64,000 nucleotides of DNA, taken from an uncultured Gammaproteobacteria bacterium (lineage in GTDB: Bacteria > Pseudomonadota > Gammaproteobacteria > Steroidobacterales > MnTg04). The notes under the pieces were generated by a model. That model was not told where the DNA came from. It did no database searches and saw nothing but the letters and a program-made list of their open reading frames with translations. The position numbers were made by a program, and so were the translations under genes. Positions 44,490 to 63,042 of the stretch are shown piece after piece. Every line of letters starts with the position of its first letter. Positions within the stretch are counted from its first letter, which is position 1. The DNA lies in NCBI GenBank assembly GCA_964568075.1, contig CAZMOM010000004.1:89227-153226 (forward strand). The letters are read 5' to 3'.

Positions 44490-44563
44490 GCCGTCCGGGA
44501 AGAAAACCCTCGTCTGCAAGCGTATTATAGTGGGCTTTCGGAGCCCCAATATGGAGTGTTCGC

Positions 44564-45292: not shown

Positions 45293-45344
45293 AACACGCT
45301 GGTGATGTCGGAAACCACGAGCGCGTTATCAATCGCAGTCATTG

Positions 45345-45717: not shown

Positions 45718-45774
45718 GCATCAAATGACGTAGTTGGCAATCTGTTGGCACCGGTCAAAATGGGGGATACCTAA

Positions 45775-46164
45775 ATGACTACCGAGCTTAACTACCTGAC
45801 CTGGATAACGGCATTGACCGCGTTTATGTGGATGCCCTATATCCTCAATTCGATCAAGGTACGCGGATTGCTGAACACGGTCAGCTATCCCGAGTTTCCT
45901 CAGCCTTTGGCATCCTGGGCCACGCGAATGAAAGCCGCGCATACGAATGCAGTGGAAAATCTGGCTGTCTTCGCGACGCTCGTTCTGATCGCTCATGTTG
46001 CCAGTATCAGCAACGAGGCGACGGTAACCGCCTGCGCCGTATATTTCTGGGCAAGATTGTTTCATTTCATTATTTACAGCATGCGTATCCCGTGGCTGAG
46101 GACTTTTTCCTTTGTTGCGGGTTTTGGCGCCCAGGTAACGCTGGCCTGGCAAATTCTTTCCTGA
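45775..46164 (+). CDS. MAPEG family membrane protein
   Basis: 129 aa with 4 hydrophobic helices and the motif AHTNAVENLAVFA. Confidence 0.75.
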   Translation: MTTELNYLTWITALTAFMWMPYILNSIKVRGLLNTVSYPEFPQPLASWATRMKAAHTNAVENLAVFATLVLIAHVASISNEATVTACAVYFWARLFHFIIYSMRIPWLRTFSFVAGFGAQVTLAWQILS

Positions 46165-46265
46165 TTTGAAATGAACCGGATTACAGATTCCAACCGGGCG
46201 TCGGACCAGGTTTCGGTGAACTGTTTTGCGTTACGAGTGGGCAACCAGACGGGCCGGAGCTTTTC

Positions 46266-47093: not shown

Positions 47094-47111
47094 ACCCAGA
47101 GGATAAACATC

Positions 47112-47495
47112 ATGCATCGCAGTCGACTGGCCGGATTCATTATTGATTGCGACACCGAGGACCTGGACGAGGCTGCAGAGTTTTGGAGCAAGGCGCTCGG
47201 TTATCCGCTGTCGCGCAGCGACGATCCAGCTGAAAAAGACTATGTCATGCTGGTTACACCGGCCGACGAGGTTCATATCGAGGTGCAAAAAGTCAGTCAC
47301 TCGAGTCGTCTGCACCTGGATATCGAAACCGACGATATTGAGGCTGAAGTTGCGCGGCTTGAAAAACTCGGCGCGAAGCGCGTTGCCAAAATAAGGCGCT
47401 GGTGCGTCATGGAAGCGCCGACCGGTCAGCGCTTTTGCGTGGTTAATGCGACTCGCCGTGATTTCAAATCCGCAGCCAGCACCTGGGACGACTGA
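47112..47495 (+). CDS. VOC (glyoxalase/bleomycin-resistance fold) family protein
   Basis: 127 aa with LAGFIIDC...A..FW...LGY, HLDIETDD.EAEVARLE.LGA and APTGQRFCVV. Confidence 0.7.
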   Translation: MHRSRLAGFIIDCDTEDLDEAAEFWSKALGYPLSRSDDPAEKDYVMLVTPADEVHIEVQKVSHSSRLHLDIETDDIEAEVARLEKLGAKRVAKIRRWCVMEAPTGQRFCVVNATRRDFKSAASTWDD

Positions 47496-47510
47496 CAACA
47501 AATCATCCTG

Positions 47511-47562
47511 CGTCAGCCCTCACCCAGAATCCATGATTCCTGGTGAAATACGCTGGCTGACG
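47511..47562. repeat. hairpin carrying a partial copy of the right arm of the 26.1-26.4 kb element
   Basis: cgtcagcc (47511-18) pairs with ggctgacg (47555-62). Inside the loop, agccctcacccagaatcc (47515-32) and tggtgaaata (47541-50) are identical to 26347-64 and 26373-82. Confidence 0.6.
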
Positions 47563-47623
47563 TTCCAATTTTCTACGGGCTGCAGGCAAGGTATGATTAC
47601 GAACTCGTGTTGAATGGACTCAT

Positions 47624-48994
47624 ATGCCACTGAATATCGTCATACTCGCCGCCGGACAAGGCACCCGTATGAAATCGGATCTGCCCAAGGTTTTGCAGCC
47701 ATTGGCGGGCCGGCCGATGCTGGAACATGTATTGGAGCGATGCTCTGGTCTGGGTGCCGGGTCAGTGCGCGTTGTCTATGGGTATGGCGGAGACCTGGTG
47801 CCGCAGGCCTTGGCCGACTGGCCGGTCGAGTGGATTTTGCAGGAGCAACAACTGGGCACGGGCCATGCGGTTGGCCAGGCGATGCCGGGTATTGCCGATA
47901 AAGGCCTGGTCCTGGTCCTGTACGGAGATGTTCCGCTGATCAGGGAAAGCACCCTTGACGAATTGCTGGAAAAAGCGGGCTCCGGATCGCTGGCCTTACT
48001 CAGCGTCATTCTAACCGACCCGACCGGGTATGGCCGGGTCATCAGAAACGATCGGGGCCAGGTGCAAAAAATTGTCGAGCAAAAGGAAGCCAGGGAGACG
48101 GAATTAAAGGTGTGCGAGGTTAATACTGGCATACTGGCTTGCCCGGCCGAACGCCTCAGGGACTGGCTGGGTAAACTGGGCAACGACAACTCGCAGGGCG
48201 AATATTATCTGACCGACGTCATCGCGATGGCGGTGGCGGATCAATACCCGGTAGACGTACTGATCGCTCCGGGCGAAATCGAGGTAATGGGTGTGAATGA
48301 CAAACGACAACTGGCGGAAATGGAGTCGGCGAATCGTGCTGAAAAGGCTGCCGGCCTGATGCGCGCTGGCGTGACCCTGCTTGACCCGGCGCGGGTGGAT
48401 GTGCGTGGAAAACTGAGCTGTGGCCGTGATGTGGTCATCGACATCAATGCAATTTTCGAAGGCGACGTAGAACTGGGCGATGGCGTTCACATCGGCCCAA
48501 ATGTCATCGTTCGGAACTCAAAGCTTGGTGCGGGCTGCACAGTGCATGCGAATACCGTCATCGAAGATGCAGAGATCGGCAAGTTCTGCGAACTGGGCCC
48601 ATTTGCCAGGGTCCGCCCTGGGACAGTTCTCGAAGCGACGGTGAAGCTGGGTAACTTCGTCGAAGTCAAGAAAAGTCATATCGGCAAAGGCAGCAAGGTG
48701 AATCACCTTAGCTATATCGGCGACACCGAGATCGGCGAGCGCGTGAACATCGGCGCAGGATTGATTACCTGCAATTACGATGGCGCCAACAAATTCAAGA
48801 CGACCATAGAGGACGATGTGTTCATCGGCTCCGGCGTCGAGCTGGTTGCACCGGTAACCGTGGAGAAAGGGGCGACTATCGGTGCTGGCTCCACGATCAG
48901 CGAGAGCGCCCCGGCGAATGAGTTGACGGTGGCGCGCAGCAGACAGACGACAGTCGAAGGCTGGAAAAACCCACGGAAGAAAGCTAAGGAATAG
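47624..48994 (+). CDS. glmU: bifunctional UDP-N-acetylglucosamine pyrophosphorylase / GlcN-1-P acetyltransferase GlmU
   Basis: The N-terminal motif ILAAGQGTRMKS.LPKVL and C-terminal hexapeptide repeats. Confidence 0.96.
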   Translation: MPLNIVILAAGQGTRMKSDLPKVLQPLAGRPMLEHVLERCSGLGAGSVRVVYGYGGDLVPQALADWPVEWILQEQQLGTGHAVGQAMPGIADKGLVLVLYGDVPLIRESTLDELLEKAGSGSLALLSVILTDPTGYGRVIRNDRGQVQKIVEQKEARETELKVCEVNTGILACPAERLRDWLGKLGNDNSQGEYYLTDVIAMAVADQYPVDVLIAPGEIEVMGVNDKRQLAEMESANRAEKAAGLMRAGVTLLDPARVDVRGKLSCGRDVVIDINAIFEGDVELGDGVHIGPNVIVRNSKLGAGCTVHANTVIEDAEIGKFCELGPFARVRPGTVLEATVKLGNFVEVKKSHIGKGSKVNHLSYIGDTEIGERVNIGAGLITCNYDGANKFKTTIEDDVFIGSGVELVAPVTVEKGATIGAGSTISESAPANELTVARSRQTTVEGWKNPRKKAKE

Positions 48995-49005
48995 CGAGGA
49001 AGCGT

Positions 49006-50841
<1,836 letters not shown>

Positions 50842-50922
50842 TTCGAGTCGGTAAGACCCGATTCCCAGGTAGTGCCGACACGACTGACCGTGTGGATATA
50901 AACCCTGCGCTTCTGACACAGC

Positions 50923-50968
50923 ATTTAACGGTGTTATATTGCTCCATCTTTAGAATTAACTGTTAGGT
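50923..50968 (+). repeat. short attC-like or attI-like remnant preceding the first cassette
   Basis: atttaac (50923-29) ... gttaggt (50962-68). At 46 bp it is shorter than typical attC sites. Confidence 0.3.
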
Positions 50969-50980
50969 GGTGCAAAGACT

Positions 50981-51547
50981 GTGCGCAAGATTCTGGTCGC
51001 AATAATTCTTTCAGTCCCGTTCTTAATATCTGCGTCTGGCGAGGAACTAGACAAGTGGGAAGCTGCCGATCGGGAAACCGTACGACTTCCGCCTAGCGAT
51101 TTTCCGAACCTGCCAAAAAGCGTGAGAAACGATCTCGACGCACGGGGTTGTACGATTCCACAGGTATATTGCTGCAACCGCCAGCCGCACAATGTAATTA
51201 GCGGGCACTTCAAGAAATCCGGTCAGGTTGATTGGGCGGTCCTTTGTTCAATCGACCGCCAGTCAACTCTACTCGTCTATTGGGGCGGATCTGCTGAGAC
51301 CGTTTCGGAGCTATCAACTTCGGCCGACCAGCACTGGTTGCAGGGTATCGGCGGCGACAACGTTGGATTCGACCACGGTATCTCAACCGTTGATGCAAAG
51401 TACATAACGGTTCATGCTCGCTCGTACGGTGGCGAAGTACCGGCGGTACTCGATCATGAAGGGATCGATGACGGGTACATGGGAAAGGCTTCCATCGTCC
51501 GTTACTGGTTTGAAGGCGAGTGGCTTATATTGCGGGGAGCGGATTGA
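50981..51547 (+). CDS. cassette 1: secreted protein, unknown function
   Basis: 188 aa with a GTG start and the signal peptide MRKILVAIILSVPFLISASG. No recognised domain. Confidence 0.65.
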   Translation: MRKILVAIILSVPFLISASGEELDKWEAADRETVRLPPSDFPNLPKSVRNDLDARGCTIPQVYCCNRQPHNVISGHFKKSGQVDWAVLCSIDRQSTLLVYWGGSAETVSELSTSADQHWLQGIGGDNVGFDHGISTVDAKYITVHARSYGGEVPAVLDHEGIDDGYMGKASIVRYWFEGEWLILRGAD

Positions 51548-51557
51548 TCACAACACC

Positions 51558-51657
51558 ACCTAACCAGGCGCTGAACTTGACACCAAGCATCTGTCACGCA
51601 GCTTGCATACGCAACCTACGCGCCAGATACTTGGCGCAAGTTAGCTAAACGTTAGGT
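51558..51657 (+). repeat. integron attC site 1
   Basis: ACCTAAC (51558-64) and its perfect complement GTTAGGT (51651-57). The inner arms gctgaacttg..ccaag / cttggcgcaagttagc pair with bulges and are separated from the core boxes by about 5 unpaired nt. Confidence 0.8.
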
Positions 51658-51772
51658 GGCATAGTCGACATTGTGCCGTTCCCGTGTCCGCTTCCGACCC
51701 AAAGCGAACCTTCGACATTCAATGTCACGATTGCCTAAGTTATAAAAAGTACGAGTTAACGAACAATCCGAC

Positions 51773-52273
51773 ATGGAACCTAAATACATCGCAAGAATAC
51801 TATTACTAATTGTTTTCGCGACGATTCTAATCGGCTGTGAACGACGTCCAGAGATAATCTTGGATCGAATGCTTCAAGCGGAAAATCTTGAGGAATTTAA
51901 TAGGTACGCAGAACGGGCTCGAGCACTTGAACAAGATGGCATTCCCTTATTATTGGCAGTACTCGAGGACAGTCTGACGACCCGCTACAGCCTGCTTAGT
52001 TACGGTAAGACAAATACCTGCCTTATGCATCTGCACGAACTGGCATCTGAGGGGATTTACACGGTTGAGGAAGTTCCGACGTTGCTTCGGGTGATCAACG
52101 AGCAGATCGCGATTATGGATACGCTCGTCACGGCGGAGATTCTTGAAATGATTACCGGAGTTGATGTTGGTTATGATGAGGAGTTCGCTACTAGCTACGC
52201 GCCCAGCGATAATGCAAAGCGAGAAAGAATGATTACCGATTGGGAACGCTGGTATGAAGCAGCGTCAAAATAG
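51773..52273 (+). CDS. cassette 2: putative lipoprotein, unknown function
   Basis: 166 aa with the lipobox-like LIGC after a hydrophobic N-terminus. No recognised domain. Confidence 0.65.
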   Translation: MEPKYIARILLLIVFATILIGCERRPEIILDRMLQAENLEEFNRYAERARALEQDGIPLLLAVLEDSLTTRYSLLSYGKTNTCLMHLHELASEGIYTVEEVPTLLRVINEQIAIMDTLVTAEILEMITGVDVGYDEEFATSYAPSDNAKRERMITDWERWYEAASK

Positions 52274-52295
52274 CTCAATGGTCTCGCGATATGCC

Positions 52296-52398
52296 ATCTA
52301 ACCAGGCGCTGCACTGGCCGCCTTTCCGTATCTGTCACGCCGCTTGCATACGCAATAGCCGCGCCAGATACTGGGCGCAAGTGAGCTAAACGTTAGAA
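52296..52398 (+). repeat. integron attC site 2
   Basis: ATCTAAC (52296-302) ... GTTAGAA (52392-98). The internal sequence is nearly identical to that of attC 1 and attC 4. Confidence 0.75.
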
Positions 52399-52409
52399 GG
52401 CGCAAGCAC

Positions 52410-52865
52410 ATGCCAATAGAATTCGACAATGTAGATCACTGCGAGGACTTTATTCGTCTCAACGAGCAATGGATCTCTGAGCACTTCTCAATCGAGGAGT
52501 CCGATCGCAAGTTGGCCGCCAATCCATTTAGGATCGTCTCCGACGGAGGTCATATCATAAGCCTGGTTGAGAATGGTTGTGTCATTGGTGTATGCGCACT
52601 GTTCAAGATCAGTGAGGATCGCTATGAACTCGCGCGAATGGCCGTAGAGCCCAGCGAGAGAGGCAAGGGTTACGGCGAGGCACTGATCACCGCGGCCCTC
52701 AGTCGTGCGCGCGACAAAGGAGCCTCAAACATATACCTCAACTCAAATACGGTGCTTGCTCCTGCTATCGCTCTTTATCGCAAGCATGGGTTTAAAACAG
52801 TGTCGGAAGGACCTCATGCGGAGTACGCTCGCTGCAACATCGTGATGGAATTGCGCTGGAAGTGA
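52410..52865 (+). CDS. cassette 3: GNAT family N-acetyltransferase
   Basis: 151 aa with RMAVEPSERGKGYGEALI (acetyl-CoA binding Q/RxxGxG/A) and ALYRKHGF. Confidence 0.8.
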   Translation: MPIEFDNVDHCEDFIRLNEQWISEHFSIEESDRKLAANPFRIVSDGGHIISLVENGCVIGVCALFKISEDRYELARMAVEPSERGKGYGEALITAALSRARDKGASNIYLNSNTVLAPAIALYRKHGFKTVSEGPHAEYARCNIVMELRWK

Positions 52866-52899
52866 CGCTCCAAAAGACGGCGAGCGCGGGAGTGGCGCC

Positions 52900-52972
52900 T
52901 TCTAACAATACTTTCAACACGGACGCACAACACGCTGCGCGTGTTGTGCGCCGGTTAACGTGAACGTTAGAT
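52900..52972 (+). repeat. integron attC site 3 (short, different sequence class)
   Basis: ttctaac (52900-06) ... GTTAGAT (52966-72), with the central palindrome gcgcacaacacgc/gcgtgttgtgcgc. Confidence 0.6.
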
Positions 52973-53012
52973 GGCGAGTCGCCAGCGTCCGCAGGTACTT
53001 GGGAGCACAATA

Positions 53013-53447
53013 ATGTTTGCCGAATCGCTCAAAGTTCGGATATTGCTTTTTGCCACAGTAATCGCTGCCCCAACTTGGGCGCAGGAAATACCGCCTGACA
53101 TATTTTCAATTCGGCCCAATGATCTGACCTGGCAAGAAAGTACTGTTGGCTGGGACAAGGCTGAGCTTTACGGTGACATGACCAGTAGCGAATATTCTGT
53201 GGTTCGGTTACGAATGCCGCCGAATTGGGAGGCGCCTGTACACAAGCATGTTCGGACGAAGCTTGAAGTGGTGAGAGTATTGAAGGGAATCCTATTCCTT
53301 GCATTCGGTGAAGATTCAAATCGGGAATCCGCAGTGGAGTATGGTCCTGAGTCCTTCATTGTCTATGCGGAGGGTACCTCAGTTCGAATGTTTACCGGCG
53401 ATGAAGAAGTGTTGGTCGAAATCACTCATCTACCGCGCGCTGAATGA
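53013..53447 (+). CDS. cassette 4: secreted cupin-like protein
   Basis: The signal peptide MFAESLKVRILLFATVIAAPTWA follows the RBS gggag. The ORF-track start at 52971 lies inside the attC core. Domain assignment is weak. Confidence 0.6.
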   Translation: MFAESLKVRILLFATVIAAPTWAQEIPPDIFSIRPNDLTWQESTVGWDKAELYGDMTSSEYSVVRLRMPPNWEAPVHKHVRTKLEVVRVLKGILFLAFGEDSNRESAVEYGPESFIVYAEGTSVRMFTGDEEVLVEITHLPRAE

Positions 53448-53478
53448 CTCGTCGGGATTGCACGCGTGGGTAATCGCC

Positions 53479-53578
53479 ATCTAACCAGTCGCTGCACTTG
53501 CCCCTGGCTATCTATCACCCCTCTTGCATACGCAACAGCCGCGCCAGATACTGGGCGCAAGTGAGCTAAACGTTAGGT
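53479..53578 (+). repeat. integron attC site 4
   Basis: ATCTAAC (53479-85) ... GTTAGGT (53572-78). It belongs to the same sequence class as attC 1 and attC 2. Confidence 0.8.
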
Positions 53579-53584
53579 GGCTTC

Positions 53585-54001
53585 ATGCAGGTCGTTAGAT
53601 TGCTCATGAAACTGATATTTGGAACATTTGCAGCAGCACTAGTCGCGGTTGTCTTGTTGGTCTATATCGCTAAACCGGAGGTACCTGAAGTAAGCGGTAT
53701 ACCGGACTATGATGCTGGGGCCGGCTGTCTCCGTGAAATCCCAAGACAATACGATCCAGAATTTTTCACTTTTAAAGGATGGGTCAAGGCTTTGTACGCT
53801 TACCACGCTGACAAGTGGGGGATAGAAATGAGCCCAGGACTACTCAGCTACTACAAGAGATACTTTCAGTTGCAACTGGATGTAGATTGTTACGTCCGGT
53901 CGGCTAATGATACAGGCCTCAATTTAACGCTGTCGCCAACGGAATTTAAAGCAGTTTATAACGCGATTGCAGAGAACCATGGACTTGAAAGAATTCGCTG
54001 A
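53585..54001 (+). CDS. cassette 5: N-terminally anchored protein, unknown function
   Basis: 138 aa with one N-terminal TM helix. No recognised domain. Confidence 0.6.
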   Translation: MQVVRLLMKLIFGTFAAALVAVVLLVYIAKPEVPEVSGIPDYDAGAGCLREIPRQYDPEFFTFKGWVKALYAYHADKWGIEMSPGLLSYYKRYFQLQLDVDCYVRSANDTGLNLTLSPTEFKAVYNAIAENHGLERIR

Positions 54002-54007
54002 TACGCA

Positions 54008-54082
54008 ATCTAACCATTACCTCCAGCCGGCCGCCTCCGTCGCTGGCGCTCCTCCGGCATCGGCTGAGGCAAGCCGTTAGGC
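54008..54082 (+). repeat. integron attC site 5 (short class)
   Basis: ATCTAAC (54008-14) ... the canonical GTTAGGC (54076-82), with GC-rich paired arms. Confidence 0.7.
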
Positions 54083-54095
54083 GTCAGTTAAGGAT

Positions 54096-54521
54096 GTGGT
54101 CATGACCATTCGCGGTAGCTGCCTTTGTGGCGGCGTTCAATACGAGATTCTTGGCAAGCTACATGACGCCGGGAATTGCCACTGTTCGATGTGCCGTCGA
54201 ACGCACGGTGCTGCGTTCGGTACCTATGCGCGTGTTGATGCAGACGAGTTCCGGTGGCTGTCTGGCGAGGATCTCATTACCGCTTACGAATCCTCGCCTG
54301 GCGGTCATCGCTGTTTTTGTCGTCAATGCGGCTCGCCTTTGGGGGCTGTGGCGGAAGGTGGAAAATTGAGTTGGGTTACGCTGGGCACTGTTACAGGTGA
54401 TCCGGGGTTGCGTCCCGAAACCCATATTTTCGTGGGCTCGAAAGCGCCCTGGTATGAGATAACAGACCATCTCCCCCAATTTGATGAATGGCCACCGGGC
54501 TTCGGACCTGAATCATTCTGA
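54096..54521 (+). CDS. cassette 6: GFA (glutathione-dependent formaldehyde-activating / CENP-V) family protein
   Basis: Zinc-Cys motifs GSCLCGGVQY, CHCSMCRR.HGA and CRQCGSPL. Confidence 0.85.
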   Translation: MVMTIRGSCLCGGVQYEILGKLHDAGNCHCSMCRRTHGAAFGTYARVDADEFRWLSGEDLITAYESSPGGHRCFCRQCGSPLGAVAEGGKLSWVTLGTVTGDPGLRPETHIFVGSKAPWYEITDHLPQFDEWPPGFGPESF

Positions 54522-54527
54522 TCTGCC

Positions 54528-54649
54528 GCCCAACAAATCGCGGAACTTGCCGCCGGGCAGCATCTGTCACAGTTCTTGCAGGATTATTGATATTTGCATT
54601 CGTAACAACCGTACCAGATACTTGGCGCAAGTAAGCTTAGACGTTAGGC
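54528..54649 (+). repeat. integron attC site 6
   Basis: GCCCAAC (54528-34) ... GTTAGGC (54643-49). Its right half (ccagatacttggcgcaagtaagct) is shared with attC 1, 2 and 4. Confidence 0.7.
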
Positions 54650-54664
54650 GCCAACGAGACGACG

Positions 54665-55102
54665 ATGCGAACTTCTGAGAAATGGGACCAAATGACCGAC
54701 GCCGATTGGACTTCATTCGCGGCCTCTTGGTTAGAAGAACTTCACAGTCCTATCGAACCAACTGATTCTGATATCGGCCAATCGGTAGTTTTTATGAACT
54801 TTACGGCAACCCCAGCGCAACAGTGGAAATTCATTGTTGCAGCAGTTGCATGCGCCAAGTCCGATGAGGAACTTGGGCATCTCGCCGTGGGGCCAATGGA
54901 GCATTTGCTCGGGCACCACGGAGAGAAAATTATCGCCCAAGTTGAGGATCGCTCAAAAAGTGATTCTGCTTTTGCGAGGATGTTGACGGGAGTGTGGAAA
55001 TATATGATTTCTGATGAAGTATGGAAGCGCATCCAGGCCATTCAGGCCGGCGTCAAAGACCCTTTGGACCCCCCGGTTGGTAATGACGCAAGTGGTGCCT
55101 GA
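54665..55102 (+). CDS. cassette 7: cytoplasmic protein, unknown function
   Basis: 145-aa ORF with no recognised domain. Confidence 0.6.
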   Translation: MRTSEKWDQMTDADWTSFAASWLEELHSPIEPTDSDIGQSVVFMNFTATPAQQWKFIVAAVACAKSDEELGHLAVGPMEHLLGHHGEKIIAQVEDRSKSDSAFARMLTGVWKYMISDEVWKRIQAIQAGVKDPLDPPVGNDASGA

Positions 55103-55200
55103 CAAGGCGCTGCACTGGCCGCCGGTCATGATTGTCGCGGGTCTTGCATTTAGAGCAACACAAGCGCCAATCACCGGCGCCAGTGGGCTAAGACGTAGGC
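55097..55200 (+). repeat. degenerate attC-like site 7
   Basis: gcctgac (55097-103) ... cgtaggc (55194-200). Both core sites deviate from consensus. Confidence 0.4.
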
Positions 55201-55219
55201 AGCCCGGAGTGGTTCATCC

Positions 55220-55618
55220 ATGAGTCAAGATATTGGAATCGTAGCAATCTACGCAGCTCTCAATGGCTTGCTAATTCTCGGGCTCTCATACAACGTCGGA
55301 CGGCATCGCGCACGAACTGATTCGTTAACGCCGGGAGCCATGGGGGACGAGATACTGATTCGTGCTATTCGAGCTCATGGCAATGCAACCGAGTACATTC
55401 CACTGGCAATCGTTATGCTGCTCATTCTGGCGCTGCTGTCAGCCCCTTCCTCTCTGATCCACGGCCTCGGCGCTGGATTCACTTTCGGACGATTGGCTCA
55501 GGCTTTTGGTATAACTCGTACTAAACACCCGAACGCGATCCGATTCACTGGCAACCTATGCACTGGCTTGGTTTACCTCATCGGTTCAATCGCATGCATC
55601 TACTACGGAGTGGCTTAG
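55220..55618 (+). CDS. cassette 8: MAPEG family membrane protein
   Basis: 132 aa with 4 TM helices and the motif RAHGNATEYIPLAIV. It is a second MAPEG gene in the window (see 45775..46164). Confidence 0.75.
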   Translation: MSQDIGIVAIYAALNGLLILGLSYNVGRHRARTDSLTPGAMGDEILIRAIRAHGNATEYIPLAIVMLLILALLSAPSSLIHGLGAGFTFGRLAQAFGITRTKHPNAIRFTGNLCTGLVYLIGSIACIYYGVA

Positions 55619-55631
55619 TGGCCACACGGCT

Positions 55632-55730
55632 GCCTAACCACTCGCTCCAGCGGAGCAAGCGAAGCGTCACGCATTTTTCTTTCGCAAAAGTCGCGCCTTT
55701 TCACTGCGCCGCTGAGCTCAAACGTTATAT
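55632..55730 (+). repeat. integron attC-like site 8
   Basis: GCCTAAC (55632-38) ... gttatat (55724-30). The right core site is imperfect. Confidence 0.5.
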
Positions 55731-55755
55731 GTAATACAGCAGGAGAGGTGCCGAA

Positions 55756-56103
55756 ATGGCGTCTGATTTAGATTTTGTCGAATTCGTAGTCGATCAAATG
55801 GAAAATGCCGGTGTTATTGCGTACAGAAAAATGTTTGGAGAATATGCGGTTTATTGTGAAGGCAAAGTCGTAGCGCTTATATGCGATAATCAGTTATTTA
55901 TTAAACCGACGAAAGCTGGTAAATCCTATATTGGTAATGTAGTAGAGGCGCCTCCCTATCCCGGAGCCAAACCGTCCTTTCTCATAGAGGAGCAAATCGA
56001 AGACAAAGATTGGATTAGCAACTTGGTGAGACTGACGGAAAGAGAGCTCCCGGAGCCCAAACCGAAGAAAAAACCGAAGCGCAAACGTGGAAAAAACACA
56101 TAG
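55756..56103 (+). CDS. cassette 9: TfoX N-terminal domain protein
   Basis: 115 aa. The FVEFVVDQMENAG.I.YRKMFGEYAVYC.GK.VALICDNQLF.K pattern is typical of the TfoX_N domain. It has a Lys-rich tail. Confidence 0.75.
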   Translation: MASDLDFVEFVVDQMENAGVIAYRKMFGEYAVYCEGKVVALICDNQLFIKPTKAGKSYIGNVVEAPPYPGAKPSFLIEEQIEDKDWISNLVRLTERELPEPKPKKKPKRKRGKNT

Positions 56104-56230
56104 CAAGTCATTCAAGTACGCAGCCTGGCGGCTGGCGGACGCCTGCAGCGCAGGCGCCGCTTAATTCAAGCGTTATGTGGCCGTTTTTTCTGGATTCTGA
56201 GGCGCTCCAAGAAATATAGCGCATCGGCAT

Positions 56231-56593
56231 TTAATCGGGTCCGCCCTCTTTTTGTGCATCGCTTTCTTTTTTTTCTCCGGGCCCCGATGAGACAGACAAA
56301 CTGGATTTCAGTTTGACGATCACGAGCAATAAAAAGGTAATGGCCCAAAAGAAAAGATAAAGCCAACCACCTTTACCAACAAAAACATTACTGACAAAAA
56401 TTACAATAAGTATCAAACTGAGAACGAGCAACAGATACTGTATAACACTGGCTGTCCTGCTTTGAACCAGCAACGCACCACAATTGGAACATTCGTGGCC
56501 TTTCACCGCGTTCAAAAAAATTCGATGCAGCAACGGCAACCGAAAACCGCACGAAGGACATCTTGATCGATAACTATTTTCCGATAAACTCAT
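56231..56593 (-). CDS. putative Rhs immunity protein: zinc-ribbon + two/three TM helices
   Basis: ATG 56593 overlaps the Rhs TGA as ATGA. Two CxxC pairs (CPSCGF, CSNCGA) are followed by strongly hydrophobic segments. The ORF-track start at GTG 56602 is also possible. Confidence 0.6.
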   Translation of the reverse strand: MSLSENSYRSRCPSCGFRLPLLHRIFLNAVKGHECSNCGALLVQSRTASVIQYLLLVLSLILIVIFVSNVFVGKGGWLYLFFWAITFLLLVIVKLKSSLSVSSGPGEKKESDAQKEGGPD

Positions 56594-59500
56594 TCGCCGC
56601 ACTCATCCTCACAATCGTTCCCCGCAGCAAGTATTCTGGCTGCGATAGCTCCGGCGATACCGCCTGTCGCGCCACCAACAGCACCGGTCACAGGGTCAGT
56701 ACCGATGGCGCCGCCTAACGCCCCGCTCACTGCGGCTGCTGTAGCGCCATCACCCAGAAGATCGCCTGCGACGGCACCAACCGCCGCACCTGCAGCAGAG
56801 CGCGCTTTACCGCCAGGACCAGAATTCGTTGCAACAGCCGCCATTCCTACTCCACCTGCAGCACCAACTTGCTGAATGACTATTGCCGACGCCATACCAA
56901 CGCCCGCTCCCCGAACCGCGCCAGCCAGTCCCAATGCAATAGCTCCAGGGATTCCTCCTACCACAGCACCGGTAATTGCTCCCGACACCAAACCGCCGAA
57001 GCCTCCGCCAATGCTCGCTGCAATCGCATTAATCTGGACTTGTGTTAAACAATACAGTCCATAAGGGTCGAAATAAACAATGGGACTGTTTTTGGCGTAT
57101 ACAAAAAGATTGATAGCAGCTGATTGACCTAACGGGTCGGTAGACACGTATCGACCAGTTCCTGGATCATAAAAACGAAAGTAGTTGTAATGCAACCCGG
57201 ACTCGGCATCGAAATACTGACCCGGAAACCTCAGGTTGAGTGTGACATTTGATCCATCTCCATCCGGATCGCCATCAGCGGCGACCCCCCCAAACCCATC
57301 ACCATCCCATCGCCAGACGATTTTCCCCGTATCATCGGTGCCACTGCGCACGGTCGCCAGGTGGTCGCTGTGCAAATAAGTCAACCTCTCCTCGGTCGTC
57401 GTCGTGACCTTGCCCTTGCCATTGCCATTGCCATTGCCATTGCCCTTGCCATTGCCATTGCCATTGCCCTTGCCCTTGCCATTGCCATTGCCATTGCCCT
57501 TGCCATTCCTTGTTGTCGTCGTGACCGGGCCGATTTGCGCTACCGGCCTGTTGCCAAGCCACAGATAGCTGGTCTCCGCCACTCCGCCGTCGGTAGTCTC
57601 GAGAATCAGATTGCCGCCAAGATCATAGTGATAGATCGTGGATCTCCCGTTCGCAATTTTTTTCACCCGCTGACCGAGCGCATTGTAGGTGTACACGCCA
57701 ACTTCTGTAATCGTCGTCTTTGGCTTACCCCTGTACTTGGTCGTGACAGCGGCTGACACAGACTGCAGGCGTCCGGAATCGTTGTAGGCCAGGTCCATCC
57801 CGCGCAAGGATGTGGTGTTGCCGGCGGCATCGAGAACCACGCTCTCACCGGCGATGGCGGTGAGCCGGTTCGAGAGGCTCAGGTAGTCATACGTACCACT
57901 GCTATCGCTGGTTCGATTGCCGTTGGCATCATAGGTAAATGCATCTCCGGCATAATTTCCCTGGTCGGTCTCCAGTCGATTCAGCGCATCATAGGTAAAC
58001 GACTGGTTCATGGCCGGATCGACAAGGTCTGTAATGCCCAGGATGTTCCCGACCGGGTCCAGGCCGTACGACTTATCCAGCAAGCCATTCATGGTGATAC
58101 CGGTTACCCGGTACGCCTGATCATAGGCATAATCCATCGACACGCCGTTGGCGTAGGTCATGGATGTGACTGGCCCAAATGGCTCATAGGCCGCGTTGCT
58201 AATAATCGCTGTCGTAACGCTGTCGACCGAGGTGTTGACCTGGGTCAGCTGTCCGGCGGCATCCCTGACATAGCTGACAATACGCCCGTCCGGGTAGGTT
58301 ATATCGGTGATATTGCCGGCACCGTCATACAGATAGCTGGTCGTATAACTGACGCCGTCGATGACTTTCACATCGCTTACGACGTCACCAAATGTGTTGT
58401 AGCCATAGGATGTTATGCCGCTTTGATCCGCGATCGCTGCTAATCTTGCAATGCCACTCGTTCCCGTGTCGAACGTATAGGTGACATTTTCGCTGGCGTC
58501 GGGATACTGTGTCTTCGTTACGCGATTCAGCACATCGTAACTGTAGGTGGTCGTGACGCCTCTGGCATCTGTCACGCCGACCACATTGCCTGCGATGTCG
58601 TGCGTGTAGAATATTTGTCCTCGATCGGGGCTGCTTTCTGACAACAGGTTGCCCAGGTCGTCATACTCGTAGGTTGTCAGGGCACCGTTTGGCGCATGAA
58701 CGCTGGTGAGATTATCGGTGACGTCGTAGCCATAGACGGTTGACCCAGACAAAGCATCGAGTGTGTCGGTCAATCGATTGAGAGGATCGTAGTTGTTCGT
58801 CGTCGCGTTCAGGTTGGCATCGGTCTCTGAATCCAGATTACCGAGCGCATCAAACAACAGGTCCGTAATGGAACTGCCATTGTTGATCGTATCGATGTTG
58901 TCCCAGATGTCATAAGTTTTCGTCAGCGTCCGCTTGAGCACATTGCTCGCGTCGTAAATCTTCTCCTCTGCCTGATTGCCTTTGAGGTCGTAGGTGTAAT
59001 CAATGTGATTGCCTAGCTCGTCGGTTACGGACAACAGGTTATGCGCCGCGTCGTAGGTATATGTCAGCGTTACACCAGCAGGCGACGTGTTGGTCTTAAG
59101 CTGCCCGGCGTTGTCGTAAGTCATCAACATCGTGCGTGCCGTACCACCGCTCGGCGACTGGCTGATGGTGGTCACCCGTCCCCTCAGATCGTAAATATAG
59201 GTAGTGACGAGGCCATTCGGATCGGTTGACTGCGTCAACCGACCTGCTGCGTCATAACTGTCATAAGTGGTGACGTGGCCCAATGCGTTGGTAACCGACA
59301 GCAGTTGACCGCATTCGGCGCCTGTCGCGCAATTGTAATAAGAAAATTTAGTTGTGTCGGAATCGTCCGTACGCGGACCGTCGACCGATGTAATCTGACC
59401 ATTGGTGTTGTACCGAAACGATATGCTTCGGCTCACGGCCGTGCCGTCTGGCCGATAACCATCGATCGTCACACTCTCGGGTAACTGCGCCGCGTTATAG

Positions 59501-61266
59501 GCCGTGATGACTTGCCGATCGTTGCCGGTGAATACGCTCGGCGATGTCACCTGCGCCAGGCGGCTCGTGTGGTTGTCGAGATACAGATAGCTCGTCAGCC
59601 TTTCTTCGGCCGTACCCACGGCTTCTGTTTTGCTGATCTTATGGTAGGTGTCGTAGGTGTAGCTGGTCTGAACGCCACGTTCATTGGTGGTACTGAGAAT
59701 TCGCCGTCTTTGGTCGCCGAAGGGATGAGCGTAAGCAATGCTTGTTGACTGCCCGCCAAATGCTGTGCCATTGACCCGTTTCGCCCAGCTAGTATCCGTG
59801 GTGAAAGAATAGGTCTTGATGTTCCCGGCGGCGTCAGTAACCAGCGTGTCGCCATTCGCTTCGTAGCTCAACGTGAGTCGTTCGTAACCACCCACATGTT
59901 CGGTCGAAATCGCACGACCGACCAGGTCGTACGCAAACATCGCAAATCGATCGCCATTTTCATCCGTAATCCCCGTCAGGTGGTTGGCGTATTTGATGTC
60001 CTCGTAGTGGTAGGTACGGACACTGCCGTCTTCGTGAGCGACGGTCGTAAGATTATTTCTCGAGTCATAGGCGTACTGGATAAGCTGTCCGTCCGGTGTT
60101 TGCACGCTTTCCAGGCGACCCAGGAAAAAGCCACTGGAATCGTAGTTAAACTTCAGCTGATGCCCGAACGGCCCGGTGACCGTATCGACCTGACCGGTGT
60201 TGTAGGTAATGGTCGTCGAACGACCCGCTTCGTCAACCAGCTCAACCAGCGCACCGGTTGCGTCATAGATTTCTCTCGCTCCGGTCTTTTGGTAAACGAC
60301 GAACTGATCAGCCTCTTTCTTGATGATCAGATCAACATTTTCATAAGCGATATAGGTATCGGTTGCGGAGTATCTCAGCGTATCCTGATGACCATCCCCG
60401 CGGATCAGTCCACTGGGATTTCCGCCATAAACAGTGATCCTGGCCTGGTAGTTATGCCGCCAGCCCACGCCGAGACCGGTCGATTTTTCTGAATTAAATG
60501 AATGATAAGTCCGTTCCAGCGATGGACCCGGACCCGTGTAATCCGATTCTTTCTGTAATTTGTCTCCGGAACCAACATCGCAGGGATTACCGACAGAGCA
60601 CGATTGAATCAGCGGCCGACCGGTTACTTTTCCGATATCGGGAAGAAAGCAATGAGGAATTGCCAGCCTGGACCAAAAAGGAGACTCGCATGCTATCGGG
60701 CGCCGTCTCGACCCACCGTCGTATGCTGCCATCGGAATGCAAGTTTCCAACGTACTGGACCATCCCCAGGTATCAACGTCGTAGTTACGATCCTGGTCCT
60801 CGACAATTTCGTACCACCAGCCATCCCATGGCGTATACCAATCTCCATCCGGCGTAACTGCCACAGGACTGCCAGCACAGTTGGCAGGCAACTGACTTTC
60901 ATATTTCACTTTCAGAAACGAAACATACTCTGCCTCGGTCGCATACAACTCGACATCAAAAAAATGCGTACTGTATTCCCACACTCCTATAACGGGATCT
61001 TTGGGCTCCGCGACAAATTTAAACCAAACGTGCTGGTCCGTGGTAATCCTGTCTACACCCGTTTCCTCGGTCAGGTATTCACCGTTATTGGTTACAACTT
61101 CCATTCTTGCGACGGCTTCGGCCTTGCTTTGAAAGGTCAAGAATTCTGTATCATTCGCCGCCTTCCATTCCCAGGGCTCATAGGCCGACACCTGATAGGA
61201 GACAATCAAGCTAAGAATTAAGGCAATCAACAACATCGACATTTTTTCTGGCGCAGGTAACTTCAT
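56590..61266 (-). CDS. Rhs/YD-repeat toxin with Sec signal peptide and glycine-zipper-like C-terminal domain
   Basis: Many YD repeats (YxYDxxGN/RL..), an N-terminal plug-like GNPCDVGSGDK, a DHL motif (YLHSDHLATV) and the core end RFYDPGTGRYVSTDP...YFDPYGL, followed by a 154-aa Gly/Ala-rich tail. ATG 61266 (MKLPAPEK.., RBS ggag) is preferred. The ORF track starts at 61314. Confidence 0.92.
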   Translation of the reverse strand: MKLPAPEKMSMLLIALILSLIVSYQVSAYEPWEWKAANDTEFLTFQSKAEAVARMEVVTNNGEYLTEETGVDRITTDQHVWFKFVAEPKDPVIGVWEYSTHFFDVELYATEAEYVSFLKVKYESQLPANCAGSPVAVTPDGDWYTPWDGWWYEIVEDQDRNYDVDTWGWSSTLETCIPMAAYDGGSRRRPIACESPFWSRLAIPHCFLPDIGKVTGRPLIQSCSVGNPCDVGSGDKLQKESDYTGPGPSLERTYHSFNSEKSTGLGVGWRHNYQARITVYGGNPSGLIRGDGHQDTLRYSATDTYIAYENVDLIIKKEADQFVVYQKTGAREIYDATGALVELVDEAGRSTTITYNTGQVDTVTGPFGHQLKFNYDSSGFFLGRLESVQTPDGQLIQYAYDSRNNLTTVAHEDGSVRTYHYEDIKYANHLTGITDENGDRFAMFAYDLVGRAISTEHVGGYERLTLSYEANGDTLVTDAAGNIKTYSFTTDTSWAKRVNGTAFGGQSTSIAYAHPFGDQRRRILSTTNERGVQTSYTYDTYHKISKTEAVGTAEERLTSYLYLDNHTSRLAQVTSPSVFTGNDRQVITAYNAAQLPESVTIDGYRPDGTAVSRSISFRYNTNGQITSVDGPRTDDSDTTKFSYYNCATGAECGQLLSVTNALGHVTTYDSYDAAGRLTQSTDPNGLVTTYIYDLRGRVTTISQSPSGGTARTMLMTYDNAGQLKTNTSPAGVTLTYTYDAAHNLLSVTDELGNHIDYTYDLKGNQAEEKIYDASNVLKRTLTKTYDIWDNIDTINNGSSITDLLFDALGNLDSETDANLNATTNNYDPLNRLTDTLDALSGSTVYGYDVTDNLTSVHAPNGALTTYEYDDLGNLLSESSPDRGQIFYTHDIAGNVVGVTDARGVTTTYSYDVLNRVTKTQYPDASENVTYTFDTGTSGIARLAAIADQSGITSYGYNTFGDVVSDVKVIDGVSYTTSYLYDGAGNITDITYPDGRIVSYVRDAAGQLTQVNTSVDSVTTAIISNAAYEPFGPVTSMTYANGVSMDYAYDQAYRVTGITMNGLLDKSYGLDPVGNILGITDLVDPAMNQSFTYDALNRLETDQGNYAGDAFTYDANGNRTSDSSGTYDYLSLSNRLTAIAGESVVLDAAGNTTSLRGMDLAYNDSGRLQSVSAAVTTKYRGKPKTTITEVGVYTYNALGQRVKKIANGRSTIYHYDLGGNLILETTDGGVAETSYLWLGNRPVAQIGPVTTTTRNGKGNGNGNGKGKGNGNGNGKGNGNGNGNGKGKVTTTTEERLTYLHSDHLATVRSGTDDTGKIVWRWDGDGFGGVAADGDPDGDGSNVTLNLRFPGQYFDAESGLHYNYFRFYDPGTGRYVSTDPLGQSAAINLFVYAKNSPIVYFDPYGLYCLTQVQINAIAASIGGGFGGLVSGAITGAVVGGIPGAIALGLAGAVRGAGVGMASAIVIQQVGAAGGVGMAAVATNSGPGGKARSAAGAAVGAVAGDLLGDGATAAAVSGALGGAIGTDPVTGAVGGATGGIAGAIAARILAAGNDCEDECGE
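57409..57510 (-). repeat. 17 tandem hexanucleotide units (ggcaat/ggcaag on the coding strand) encoding (GN/GK)17 inside the Rhs gene
   Basis: The plus strand reads cttgcc/attgcc repeated from 57409 to 57510. The peptide is RNGKGNGNGNGKGKGNGNGNGKGNGNGNGNGKGK, flanked by TTT and VTTTT. Confidence 0.95.
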
Positions 61267-61725
61267 AATGAAACAGCTCCGGACAATTCGTTTAGTACTG
61301 CCAATGGCTCGCATTCTTTAGTGAAAAACGCCGAGCAAGCATTGGCGACATGGTCCGCAGCATGTTTTCAGGTTCAGTACGTTCTTGCGAGATTCGAATC
61401 CGAACAGATCGATCAGAAATTCGATTAGCTGCTGATAAAGCAACCTACAGGTTGAAAATAGGTGCTGGTGTTAGGTTATGAAGATATTAATTGATTGGTT
61501 TTTGCTTGAATTCGAAATTGTATGTTTTTAAAACCTGGCGAATCGCAGATTCAGGTCGACAGAACTGGCTCGACTTTTTCGGCGTCCCTGCCATACCCAA
61601 TATCTGCTTCTGACAACCTTGGGATCGTGCTTTGGTGAAGTTGCATTTACCAGCCGGAAAACTGGCTCAAATAAGTAAATAACTTAACACCGGCACCATT
61701 TTCAAACTCGGCACCGTTGTCAAAC

Positions 61726-62538: not shown

Positions 62539-62558
62539 TGCAACTTGCGGACCCGCAG

Positions 62559-63032: not shown

Positions 63033-63042
63033 GAAGGTGCTC

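What the first reader, a model, noticed from the sequence alone, without database searches (positions are those of the whole stretch)
50842..56180. Integrase-less integron cassette array (CALIN) placed directly downstream of glmS
Starting about 80 bp after the glmS stop, nine short plus-strand ORFs are each followed by a 73-122 bp site with the attC hallmarks. These are an inverse core RYYYAAC (for example ACCTAAC, ATCTAAC, GCCTAAC, GCCCAAC), a complementary core GTTRRRY (GTTAGGT, GTTAGGC, GTTAGAT), about 5 unpaired nt next to the core boxes, and imperfectly paired inner arms with bulged bases. The orientation (ORF, then RYYYAAC...GTTRRRY) predicts attI/intI on the glmS side, but only about 140 bp is available there and no integrase is present anywhere in the window. 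The glmS 3' flank is the classical Tn7-family attachment hotspot, so a cassette array at exactly this position, without tns or intI genes, is notable. It could be a decayed Tn7-like or integron element, or a cassette reservoir mobilised in trans.
Basis: partly seen in the sequence, partly recalled or inferred. Interest (0 to 1): 0.7.

Follow-up and report, generated by a model that had tools for sequence, protein, structure and literature searches.

The report
Integrase-less integron cassette array after glmS
This is a genuine integron gene-cassette array with no integrase gene nearby, docked at a conserved site just after glmS in uncultured deep-sea Woeseiaceae-like bacteria; this kind of element is already known, and the window's cassette order may be an assembly misjoin.

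Summary
Nine plus-strand ORFs (50963-56172) are each followed by a 73-122 nt attC site. The sites show covarying R and L boxes, a bulged base and 5-6 nt unpaired spacers. A model built from them hits nothing else in the window and nothing in 842 kb of unrelated glmS loci. Independent contigs diverge exactly at the G|TT crossover of attC sites, which is the mark of integron-integrase recombination. No integrase, integrase remnant or Tn7 feature was detected in the window.

Two additions matter.

1. The array head, 121 nt after glmS, is an ~85-nt block conserved in seven related genomes. It ends in AAyTAmCTG|TTA and carries an extended -10 promoter-like motif. Five different first cassettes sit at the same nucleotide, so it behaves like an orphan attI serviced in trans.

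2. The window equals two contigs of another assembly of the same sample, joined through one exactly duplicated 574-bp GNAT cassette. In that assembly cassettes 4-9 end a separate array with at least 24 attC sites beside an Rhs gene, and the glmS array continues to mtgA, as it does in relatives. The nine-cassette order is therefore probably a repeat-mediated misjoin.

Verdict: a CALIN, a new member of a known kind.

The parts
49006..50841 (+). glmS (611 aa), the left chromosomal flank of the array. It is preceded by glmU (47624-48994).
   Evidence: Pfam SIS plus GATase domains for glmS; Hexapep and NTP_transf_3 for glmU.
50889..50962 (+). Conserved head block, read as an attI-like docking site. 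It ends in GAATTAACTG|TT, with the crossover between G50962 and T50963.
   Evidence: The block aligns in the six genomes compared and conservation stops at the crossover; MnTg04 carries the same block. The first cassette differs in five lineages. The core AAyTAmCTGTTA occurs in 1.15 Mb of fetched DNA only at array heads and at one TA-module end inside an array.
50913..50940 (+). Promoter-like site CTGACA-16 nt-TATATT with TG upstream (extended -10), pointing into the array. A possible Pc equivalent.
   Evidence: It is the best promoter-like match in 50700-56700, at 10 of 12 positions. The TGnTATATT element is conserved in all relatives. No plus-strand terminator-like site lies between glmS and ORF1. 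Function was not tested.
50963..51651 (+). Cassette 1: ORF 50981-51547 (188 aa, no Pfam match) plus attC1 51558-51657.
   Evidence: The reverse complement of R'' plus its flank matches the cassette's own 5' end over 11 consecutive nt.
51652..52392 (+). Cassette 2: ORF 51869 (or 51773)-52273 (134/166 aa, no Pfam match) plus attC2 52296-52398.
52393..52966 (+). Cassette 3: GNAT acetyltransferase ORF 52410-52865 plus attC3 52900-52972. This 574-bp unit is present, 100% identical, in two different arrays of an independent assembly, and it is where the window switches between them.
   Evidence: Pfam Acetyltransf_1. Identity to scaffold_1 ends at 52969. Identity to scaffold_265 starts at 52391. A 12-nt end-complementarity run.
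52967..53572 (+). Cassette 4: ORF 53013-53447 (144 aa, no Pfam match) plus attC4 53479-53578.
   Evidence: 12-nt run.
53573..53594 (+). A 22-bp remnant between two G|TT crossovers, read as a deleted or empty cassette.
   Evidence: The R'' flank of cassette 5 complements GTTAGATTGC at 53594, not the R' of attC4.
53595..54076 (+). Cassette 5: ORF 53585 (or 53606)-54001 (138/131 aa, hydrophobic N-terminus) plus attC5 54008-54082.
54077..54643 (+). Cassette 6: GFA-family ORF 54096-54521 plus attC6 54528-54649.
   Evidence: Pfam GFA.
54644..55195 (+). Cassette 7: DUF6869 ORF 54665-55102 plus the degenerate attC7 55097-55200 (R'' GCCTGAC, R' G-TAGGC). Probably no longer recombinogenic.
   Evidence: Pfam DUF6869; sequence; model score 66.9 bits.
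55196..55724 (+). Cassette 8: MAPEG ORF 55220-55618 plus attC8 55632-55730.
   Evidence: Pfam MAPEG. An 11-nt end complementarity once the deleted T is restored.
55725..56172 (+). Cassette 9: TfoX_N ORF 55756-56103 plus attC9 56098-56178. The last crossover G is at 56172 and the array ends here.
   Evidence: Pfam TfoX_N. No further attC downstream. The linkage of cassette 9 to the Rhs flank is confirmed by an independent Logan contig.
56231..61314 (-). Right flank in this window: a 123-aa zinc-ribbon/TM ORF (56231-56602) and an Rhs protein (56590-61314). These are not part of the array and are probably not the native right flank of the glmS array.
   Evidence: Pfam RHS_repeat and DUF6531. In relatives and in scaffold_1 the glmS array ends at NnrU/mtgA. 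GC skew changes sign here.

Best explanation
The region is an array of integron gene cassettes. Each cassette is a mostly promoterless ORF followed by an attC site, and no integron integrase is encoded nearby. That makes it a CALIN. The host is an uncultured gammaproteobacterium close to MAG MnTg04 (JTB255/Woeseiaceae).

Proposed mechanism. [quoted passage not shown] It recombines that site, between the G and TT of GTTRRRY, with another attC or with the double-stranded head site. The head site is a lineage-conserved ~85-nt block, 50889-50962, ending in AAyTAmCTG|TTA. It acts as an attI-like docking point where new cassettes enter. An extended -10 promoter-like motif inside it, together with read-through from glmS, would express the proximal cassettes.

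The array points the same way as glmS and the atp operon, on the strand with positive GC skew. Its attC bottom strands are therefore inferred to lie on the leading-strand template, as in most sedentary chromosomal integrons.

Shown: attC structure and specificity, crossover-exact cassette turnover, the conserved head with variable first cassettes, and the absence of intI and tns in cis.

Inferred: that IntI acts in trans, that the head block is a functional attI and promoter, and the replication orientation.

The particular order of cassettes 1-3 followed by 4-9 and Rhs is one of two paths through an exactly duplicated GNAT cassette, and is probably not the native one.
For: attC identity.
- R and L box covariation with a bulged base.
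- Bottom-strand folding advantage.
- Model hits only in arrays: 9 of 9 in the window, none elsewhere in the window and none below E=0.23 in 842 kb of control DNA.
- A literature-consensus detector gives 3 hits against 0 in the control.
- The R'' flank of each cassette is complementary to that cassette's own 5' end beyond the 7-bp box, with runs of 10-12 nt for cassettes 1, 3, 4, 5 and 8. The same holds for about 15 cassettes in related arrays.

Recombination at G|TT.
- scaffold_1 is 100% identical to window 39006-52969 and diverges in the R' of attC3.
- scaffold_265 is 100% identical from 52391, the R' of attC2.
- L095, L096 and L097 share the first cassette and diverge right after ...CG|TTA.

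Head site.
- The block is conserved in the window, L092, L093/94, L095-97 and MnTg04, with five different first cassettes at the same nucleotide.
- The same 17-nt core heads an array at another locus in a different MAG.

Promoter-like site.

No integrase or tns.
- tblastn with IntI1.
- The precomputed Pfam lists of all neighbouring genes show no integrase or tns families.

Orientation. gidB, parA, atp and glmUS lie on the plus strand with positive GC skew. The known orientation bias of sedentary chromosomal integrons is 25 of 30 (PMC5371416).

Cassette cargo is typical of chromosomal integrons: GNAT, GFA, MAPEG, TfoX_N, DUFs and toxin-antitoxin modules.
Against: - No IntI gene of this lineage was found, so trans action is an inference.
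- IntegronFinder's own attC model could not be run. My model was trained on the sites themselves, although it generalises to non-training sites.
- The head block could owe its conservation to another role, such as a glmS 3' element. Different first cassettes could also have spread by homologous recombination through the flanks rather than by repeated site-specific insertion.
- attC7 is degenerate and attC9 is weak, so part of the array may be frozen.
- The window's cassette order is contradicted by another assembly of the same sample.
Confidence: 0.85

Rival explanations
1. Assembly chimera. This rival concerns the structure, not the nature, of the array. In the real genome the glmS array runs cassette 1, cassette 2, GNAT, then other cassettes, then NnrU/mtgA. 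Cassettes 4-9 are the tail of a separate long array next to the Rhs gene. The window joins the two through the exactly duplicated 574-bp GNAT cassette.
For: - The window is 100% identical to scaffold_1 up to 52969 and to scaffold_265 from 52391. The overlap is exactly one cassette, crossover to crossover.
- scaffold_265 carries at least 17 more model-detected attC sites upstream of GNAT and starts inside the array.
- Logan contigs of the same run break around this cassette.
- Relatives L093 and L094 have glmS-array-NnrU-mtgA. The tail of scaffold_1 is orthologous to that: 82% identity over the NnrU 5' end and 85% over mtgA. The window's tail flank has no counterpart there.
- GC skew and gene orientation flip at 56.2 kb, only about 25 kb from gidB/parA. 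That is odd for an origin-proximal region.
Against: Both paths use the same four junctions, so the other assembly could be the wrong one. A real inversion or exchange between two arrays through the shared cassette, or a mixed population, is also possible. No read-level data were available.
Confidence: 0.65
2. Fossil of a decayed integron. An ancestral integron sat next to glmS, its intI was deleted, and the array is now an inert remnant.
For: - The conserved attI-like block and promoter-like motif look like the leftover of an integron platform.
- Loss of intI is one accepted origin of CALINs (PMC4889954).
- Some sites are degenerate (attC7, attC9, the 22-bp remnant).
Against: - No intI remnant exists. 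Only 121 nt separate glmS from the first crossover, and tblastn finds nothing.
- The array is not inert. First cassettes differ at the same nucleotide in genomes sharing at least 90% GlmS identity. Genomes with identical GlmS differ from the second cassette on. An identical cassette sits in two arrays.
- An origin by intI loss in the common ancestor is not excluded. Inactivity is.
Confidence: 0.12
3. Secondary-site (attG) origin. A cassette was first inserted by IntI at a chance GWT site downstream of glmS. The array then grew by attC x attC insertion, and the head is not a dedicated attI.
For: - IntI inserts cassettes at GWT genome sites, more often near oriC. This has been proposed as a source of small CALINs (bioRxiv 10.1101/2022.09.11.507474).
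- The locus is origin-proximal.
- The crossover is at G|TT.
Against: - A one-off attG junction would freeze the first cassette, yet five different first cassettes use the same nucleotide.
- About 85 nt upstream are conserved while the DNA just after the glmS stop is not.
- The same 12-17-nt core recurs at another array head and at a TA-module end. That argues for a sequence-specific site rather than a bare GWT.
Confidence: 0.2
4. Remnant of a Tn7-like element that carried an integron, inserted at the glmS attachment site.
For: Only the position, 3' of glmS, the classical attTn7 neighbourhood. The conserved block begins with TGTG about 30-105 nt after the stop codon.
Against: - No TnsA, B, C, D or E genes and no transposase in the window or in any related glmS locus.
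- No inverted copy of the block downstream and no repeated binding-site motifs inside it.
- In Tn7 the tns genes, not the integron, lie next to glmS (established knowledge).
Confidence: 0.02

Closest known systems
[quoted passage not shown] 2016, PMC4889954)
   Same: Two or more attC sites in one orientation, each after a short ORF. No intI or intI pseudogene nearby. Cargo is mostly of unknown or accessory function. Found on the chromosome.
   Different: Most CALINs are small and have heterogeneous attC sites. Here four or five sites belong to one ~100-nt homogeneous family. The array sits at the same locus in seven related genomes and keeps a conserved attI-like head block. Its content turns over between near-identical genomes.
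Sedentary chromosomal integrons at a fixed housekeeping locus, such as the Xanthomonas integron beside ilvD or the Vibrio superintegron
   Same: Fixed chromosomal position across a lineage. Lineage-specific, homogeneous attC repeats. Strain-specific cassette content. Toxin-antitoxin cassettes. attC bottom strands inferred to be on the leading-strand template (PMC5371416).
   Different: Those elements have intI, intact or as a pseudogene, next to attI. Here no trace of intI exists at the locus in any of the seven genomes, and at least one other array with the same attC family exists in the same population or genome.
attI sites of integrons (e.g. attI1) and the double-stranded attG genome sites (bioRxiv 10.1101/2022.09.11.507474)
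   Same: Crossover at G|TT. The first cassette abuts the site. The core is a short inverted pair (cTAAC-T-GTTAg), like the L/R 'simple site' of attI1. A promoter lies upstream, facing the cassettes.
   Different: It is not adjacent to an integrase gene. No binding or recombination data exist. The similarity to attI1 is architectural only and recalled from knowledge; it is not a sequence match.
Tn7 and its class 2 integron at attTn7
   Same: Location just downstream of glmS, and the presence of integron cassettes.
   Different: No transposition genes, ends or target duplication. The cassettes abut glmS directly.

Membership tests
integron attC recombination site | Inverse core R'' (RYYYAAC) and core R' (GTTRRRY) at the two ends, complementary to each other | tested here: met
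   Six of nine R'' boxes and four of nine R' boxes match the consensus exactly. Most of the rest differ by one base; attC7 and attC9 are degenerate. The R-box helix is 84% paired, with compensatory changes in 3 of 7 pairs.
integron attC recombination site | L''/L' helix separated from the R box by about 5 unpaired nt on each side, with extrahelical base(s) on the L'' side. The bottom strand is the recombinogenic, better-folding strand. | tested here: met
   The L helix is 86% paired with a constant bulged column, and 5 of 7 pairs are compensatory. The MFE folds show 5+5 nt internal loops and bulges on the 3' half of the bottom strand. The bottom strand is more stable in five sites and about equal in four.
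integron attC recombination site | Recombination crossover between G and TT of R', so that a cassette starts with TTRRRY and ends with G | tested here: met
   Contig-to-contig breakpoints fall at 52391/52392, at 52966-52969 and at ...CG|TTA in L095-97. Cassette-end complementarity extends beyond the box.
integron attC recombination site | Recognition by the IntegronFinder attC covariance model | not testable with these tools
   That model is not available and Rfam has no matching family. The surrogate was my own model plus negative controls.
CALIN | At least two attC sites clustered together | tested here: met
   Nine sites in 5.3 kb, with spacing of 450-1180 nt.
CALIN | No integron-integrase gene or pseudogene nearby (4-10 kb in Cury et al.) | tested here: met
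   tblastn of IntI1 against the whole window gives a best E-value of 0.28 and nothing at E<=0.01 in 1.13 Mb of loci. The Pfam lists of neighbouring genes lack PF00589.
complete integron | intI encoding a tyrosine recombinase with the IntI-specific insertion, adjacent to attI | tested here: not met
   None in the window or in any related glmS locus.
complete integron | attI site at the array head and a Pc promoter | tested here: inconclusive
   A conserved head block with variable first cassettes and an extended -10 motif. No cognate IntI was available for comparison and there was no functional test.
sedentary chromosomal integron | Same chromosomal locus across the lineage, homogeneous attC repeats, large array | tested here: inconclusive
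   The locus and the attC family are conserved. The glmS arrays have roughly 10-13 ORFs and no intI. The array with at least 24 attC sites is at another locus.
Tn7-like transposon | tnsA/B/C plus a target selector, and terminal inverted repeats with TnsB-binding repeats | tested here: not met
   No such genes in the gene lists. No inverted or internal repeats.

The most novel reading that the evidence does not exclude
In this JTB255/Woeseiaceae lineage the integron system may be split. An ~85-nt orphan attI with its own promoter is fixed downstream of glmS, and a related core sits at other loci. One integrase encoded elsewhere would service several dispersed, attI-headed arrays in trans. On this reading some 'CALINs' are functional satellite platforms rather than debris.
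Probability: 0.35. Interest if true: 0.6.

Novelty: new member of a known kind. Interest (0 to 1): 0.4.

Why it matters
CALINs are about as common as complete integrons, and their origin and activity are debated. They may come from integrase loss, from secondary-site insertion, or from rearrangement. This locus gives a clean natural example in an abundant, uncultured marine-sediment clade. An integrase-less array keeps a conserved docking site and shows crossover-exact cassette turnover, including at its head. That argues for activity in trans, and the head site can be tested directly.

There is also a practical lesson. Identical cassettes shared between arrays can make metagenome assemblers join unrelated loci, so array length and flanks in MAGs need read-level checks.

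Tried and rejected
- Rfam, at gathering and permissive thresholds: no family matches the sites or the head block. No tRNA or tmRNA in the window.
- Tn7 hypothesis: no tns genes, no terminal inverted repeats, no repeated motifs in the head block.
- The variable gene island between atpC and glmU (39.4-47.6 kb) looked cassette-like but has no attC, even with filters off.
- Search for the integrase. I walked scaffold_265 to its start, but the contig begins inside the array. tblastn of IntI1 over all fetched loci found nothing. The integrase of this lineage was not found.
- The GTDB scan with the attC 3' consensus found only two other MAGs. Both arrays abut ordinary genes without intI, and the window's own genome was not in that set.
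- JGI metagenome relatives of GlmS are at most 72% identical and carry no array. They served only as a negative control.
- Looser versions of my consensus detector were too unspecific to use: 68 to 1268 control hits.
- Two look-ups intended to annotate window 1-39 kb returned only short contigs.

Full report
WHAT IS THERE

glmU (47624-48994) and glmS (49006-50841) close an origin-proximal gene run on the plus strand: gidB, parA, the atp operon, then glmU and glmS. From 50963 to 56172 there are nine plus-strand ORFs, each followed by a 73-122 nt repeat. The Pfam content is typical of chromosomal integron cargo:
- GNAT (cassette 3)
- GFA (cassette 6)
- DUF6869 (cassette 7)
- MAPEG (cassette 8)
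- TfoX_N (cassette 9)
- no Pfam match for the other four

To the right lie a small zinc-ribbon/TM ORF, a 1574-aa Rhs protein, an M48 peptidase and a YbjQ protein, all on the minus strand.

ARE THE REPEATS attC SITES?

Structure.
- Every site starts with an RYYYAAC-like box and ends with a GTTRRRY-like box.
- On the alignment of the nine bottom strands I imposed one structure: a 7-bp R helix, unpaired spacers, and a 7-bp L helix interrupted by one bulged column.
- 85% of cells pair. Eight of 14 pairs show changes on both sides. No shuffle out of 500 reaches the observed covariation. Sliding the partners by 1-3 columns collapses pairing to 25-40%.
- MFE folds of the long sites show the canonical picture: R stem, a 5+5 nt internal loop, an L stem with bulges on the L'' side, and a long imperfect stem.
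- The bottom strand is 4.5-13.7 kcal/mol more stable than the top strand in five sites.

Specificity.
- A covariance model built from the nine sites finds only these nine in the whole window.
- It finds nothing in the atpC-glmS region with filters off.
- It finds nothing below E=0.23 in 842 kb of 80 unrelated glmS loci.
- It finds many non-training sites, always one per short ORF and in one orientation, in related arrays.
- A strict detector written only from the published consensus gives 3 hits in the window, all in the array, and 0 in the control. Looser settings were uninformative.
- The repeats are therefore not a dispersed REP family.
- Rfam has no matching family. IntegronFinder's model could not be run.

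EVIDENCE OF INTEGRASE-TYPE RECOMBINATION

In a cassette, the bases after the crossover G|TT at its 5' end and the R'' box at its 3' end derive from one attC site, so they should be complementary beyond the 7-bp box. Cassettes 1, 3, 4 and 8 show runs of 11-12 nt, and cassette 5 shows a 10-nt run. For cassette 5 the run is with a second crossover at 53594, which leaves a 22-bp remnant. About 15 cassettes in related arrays show the same signature.

Independent contigs give stronger evidence still.
- ENA assembly ERZ23500248, scaffold_1, is 100% identical to window 39006-52969 and then continues with other cassettes. It diverges inside the R' of attC3.
- scaffold_265 of the same sample is 100% identical to window 52391-64000 and differs upstream, starting at the R' of attC2.
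- Three NCBI MAGs with at least 90% GlmS identity share the first cassette and diverge immediately after ...CG|TTA of its attC.

NO INTEGRASE AND NO Tn7

- It finds nothing at E<=0.01 in the 1.13 Mb of loci fetched by then.
- The precomputed Pfam lists for all neighbouring genes in ten related loci show no tyrosine recombinase and no Tns proteins.
- There are no terminal inverted repeats around the array and no repeated motifs in the head region.

THE HEAD OF THE ARRAY

The first crossover is G50962|T50963, 121 nt after the glmS stop. GlmS cluster members at 90% identity or more include the published MAG MnTg04, assigned to JTB255/Woeseiaceae. Every such relative I could read has an array directly after glmS: L092, L093/L094, L095, L096, L097 and L100.

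The alignment shows that the DNA just after the stop codon is not conserved, while the ~85 nt before the crossover are. The block reads ...GCGCTTCTrA..AACGGTGwTATATTGCyCyATC..AAyTAmCTG|TTA, and conservation stops at the crossover.

Five different first cassettes occupy that nucleotide, each with an R'' that complements its own start:
- window: the 188-aa ORF
- L092: a HigBA-like toxin-antitoxin module
- L093/L094: an 89-aa membrane protein
- L095-97: a CPCC protein
- MnTg04: a 61-aa ORF

The core AAyTAmCTGTTA occurs in 1.15 Mb of fetched DNA, both strands, only at three kinds of place: these heads, the head of an array behind an AMP-binding-enzyme gene in another MAG, and the end of the toxin-antitoxin module inside scaffold_1's array. 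Each time it sits at a cassette 5' boundary.

The best promoter-like match in the 6-kb region lies inside the block and faces the cassettes. It is an extended -10 (TGnTATATT) conserved in all relatives. No terminator-like site separates it from glmS.

I read the block as an attI-like docking site with a Pc-like promoter. This is an inference: no binding or recombination was tested, and the lineage's true intI-attI was not found.

THE WINDOW'S CASSETTE ORDER IS DOUBTFUL

The piece shared by scaffold_1 and scaffold_265 is exactly one cassette, the 574-bp GNAT cassette 52393-52966, crossover to crossover.

In that assembly:
- scaffold_1 runs glmS, cassette 1, cassette 2, GNAT, about nine other cassettes, a truncated NnrU, further cassettes, then mtgA.
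- scaffold_265 starts inside an array, carries at least 17 model-detected attC sites upstream of GNAT, and then has GNAT, cassettes 4-9 and Rhs.

The window is the other pairing of the same four junctions.

Three observations favour scaffold_1's pairing.
- Relatives L093 and L094 have glmS-array-NnrU-mtgA. scaffold_1's tail is orthologous to theirs: 82% identity over the NnrU start and 85% over mtgA. The window's tail flank has no counterpart there.
- Logan contigs of the same run break around the cassette, and one independently confirms cassettes 5-9 linked to Rhs.
- GC skew and gene orientation flip at 56.2 kb.

I put about 65% on a repeat-mediated misjoin. A real exchange between two arrays, or a mixed population, remains possible. 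Either way, cassettes 1-3 directly after glmS, the absence of intI, and the attC identity of all nine sites stand.

HOW IT MOST LIKELY WORKS

An IntI encoded elsewhere recombines folded bottom-strand attC sites with each other (excision, shuffling) and with the double-stranded head site (insertion). The proximal cassettes are transcribed from the head promoter and/or by glmS read-through. Toxin-antitoxin cassettes in the related arrays may stabilise them. The same ~100-nt attC family in at least two arrays of one population, in a second array of MAG JAPUGL01 that also has the glmS array, and in MAG JADFSO01 fits one integrase serving several arrays. The orientation places attC bottom strands on the leading-strand template, as in 25 of 30 sedentary chromosomal integrons (PMC5371416).

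COMPARISON WITH WHAT IS KNOWN

By definition this is a CALIN (PMC4889954). CALINs are abundant: 2961 in 21,105 genomes, and 95% have no nearby intI pseudogene (bioRxiv 10.1101/2022.09.11.507474). Proposed origins are intI loss, rearrangement, and secondary-site or attG insertion.

What goes beyond a routine case is the conserved head block with repeated use, and the fixed locus across a lineage of uncultured sediment bacteria. No paper combining Woeseia and integrons appeared among the ten top-ranked results of a search of the held library. I rate it a new member of a known kind, with moderate interest.

Noticed in passing
window 53573-53594: A 22-bp piece lies between two G|TT crossovers (GTTAGGTGGCTTCATGCAGGTC|GTTAGATTGC). 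Cassette 5's R'' complements the second crossover, so this looks like the remnant of a deleted cassette. The longest ORF of cassette 5 starts inside it.
   Followed up: partly
window 55097-55200 and 56098-56104: attC7 has R'' GCCTGAC, whose TGA is the stop codon of cassette 7, and an R' with one T deleted (G-TAGGC). Cassettes 7 and 8 are probably locked together. The R'' of attC9 (ACATAGC) contains the TAG stop of cassette 9.
   Followed up: partly
window 56231-61314 (minus strand): The Rhs protein carries an odd (NG/KG)n insert encoded by a 6-nt repeat at 57381-57519, flanked by TTTT motifs. Its C-terminal domain after ...DPYGL is Gly/Ala-rich and hydrophobic. The downstream 123-aa zinc-ribbon/TM ORF is the likely immunity protein.
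   Followed up: partly
window ~56200: GC skew is positive in almost every bin from 1 to 56 kb and negative from 56 to 64 kb. Gene orientation flips at the same point. This is a terminus-like pattern only about 25 kb from gidB/parA. It is consistent with a misjoin or an inversion at the array.
   Followed up: partly
window 61642-61687, 63447-63578, 63904-63924; L001 17602-17732: A short repeated element flanks the M48/YbjQ genes. An 80%-identical copy sits inside scaffold_1's array, right after a truncated NnrU gene, where a second block of cassettes begins. It may be a small mobile or REP-like element.
   Followed up: no
window 39400-47600: The stretch between atpC and glmU holds co-oriented small accessory genes: metallo-beta-lactamase fold, DcuC, GGACT, cupin, GNAT, methyltransferase, MAPEG, arginase and glyoxalase. 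Their presence varies between relatives, but the stretch has no attC sites. It is a second variable island of a different kind.
   Followed up: partly
L001 14640-15299; L092 5127-5515: A HigBA-like toxin-antitoxin module is the first cassette after glmS in L092. In scaffold_1 it lies inside the array, preceded by a truncated 32-nt attC and ending in AATTAACTG|TTAGAG. That is the head-site core rather than an attC, which is reminiscent of reported 'delta-attI-type' cassettes (PMC12901181, title and abstract only).
   Followed up: partly
L007 (JADFSO010000014.1) 4470-4822; L008 (JAPUGL010000127.1): Two GTDB MAGs carry arrays with the same attC family at other loci: one behind an AMP-binding-enzyme gene and one behind OsmC. 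Neither has intI within the fetched DNA. JAPUGL01 also has the glmS array (L097), so this lineage carries several integrase-less arrays per genome.
   Followed up: partly
L093 16249-16349: A run of N (a scaffold gap) lies inside the DUF6265 cassette of scaffold ZHOU22-1_SAMN16252669. It is another sign that these arrays are hard to assemble.
   Followed up: no
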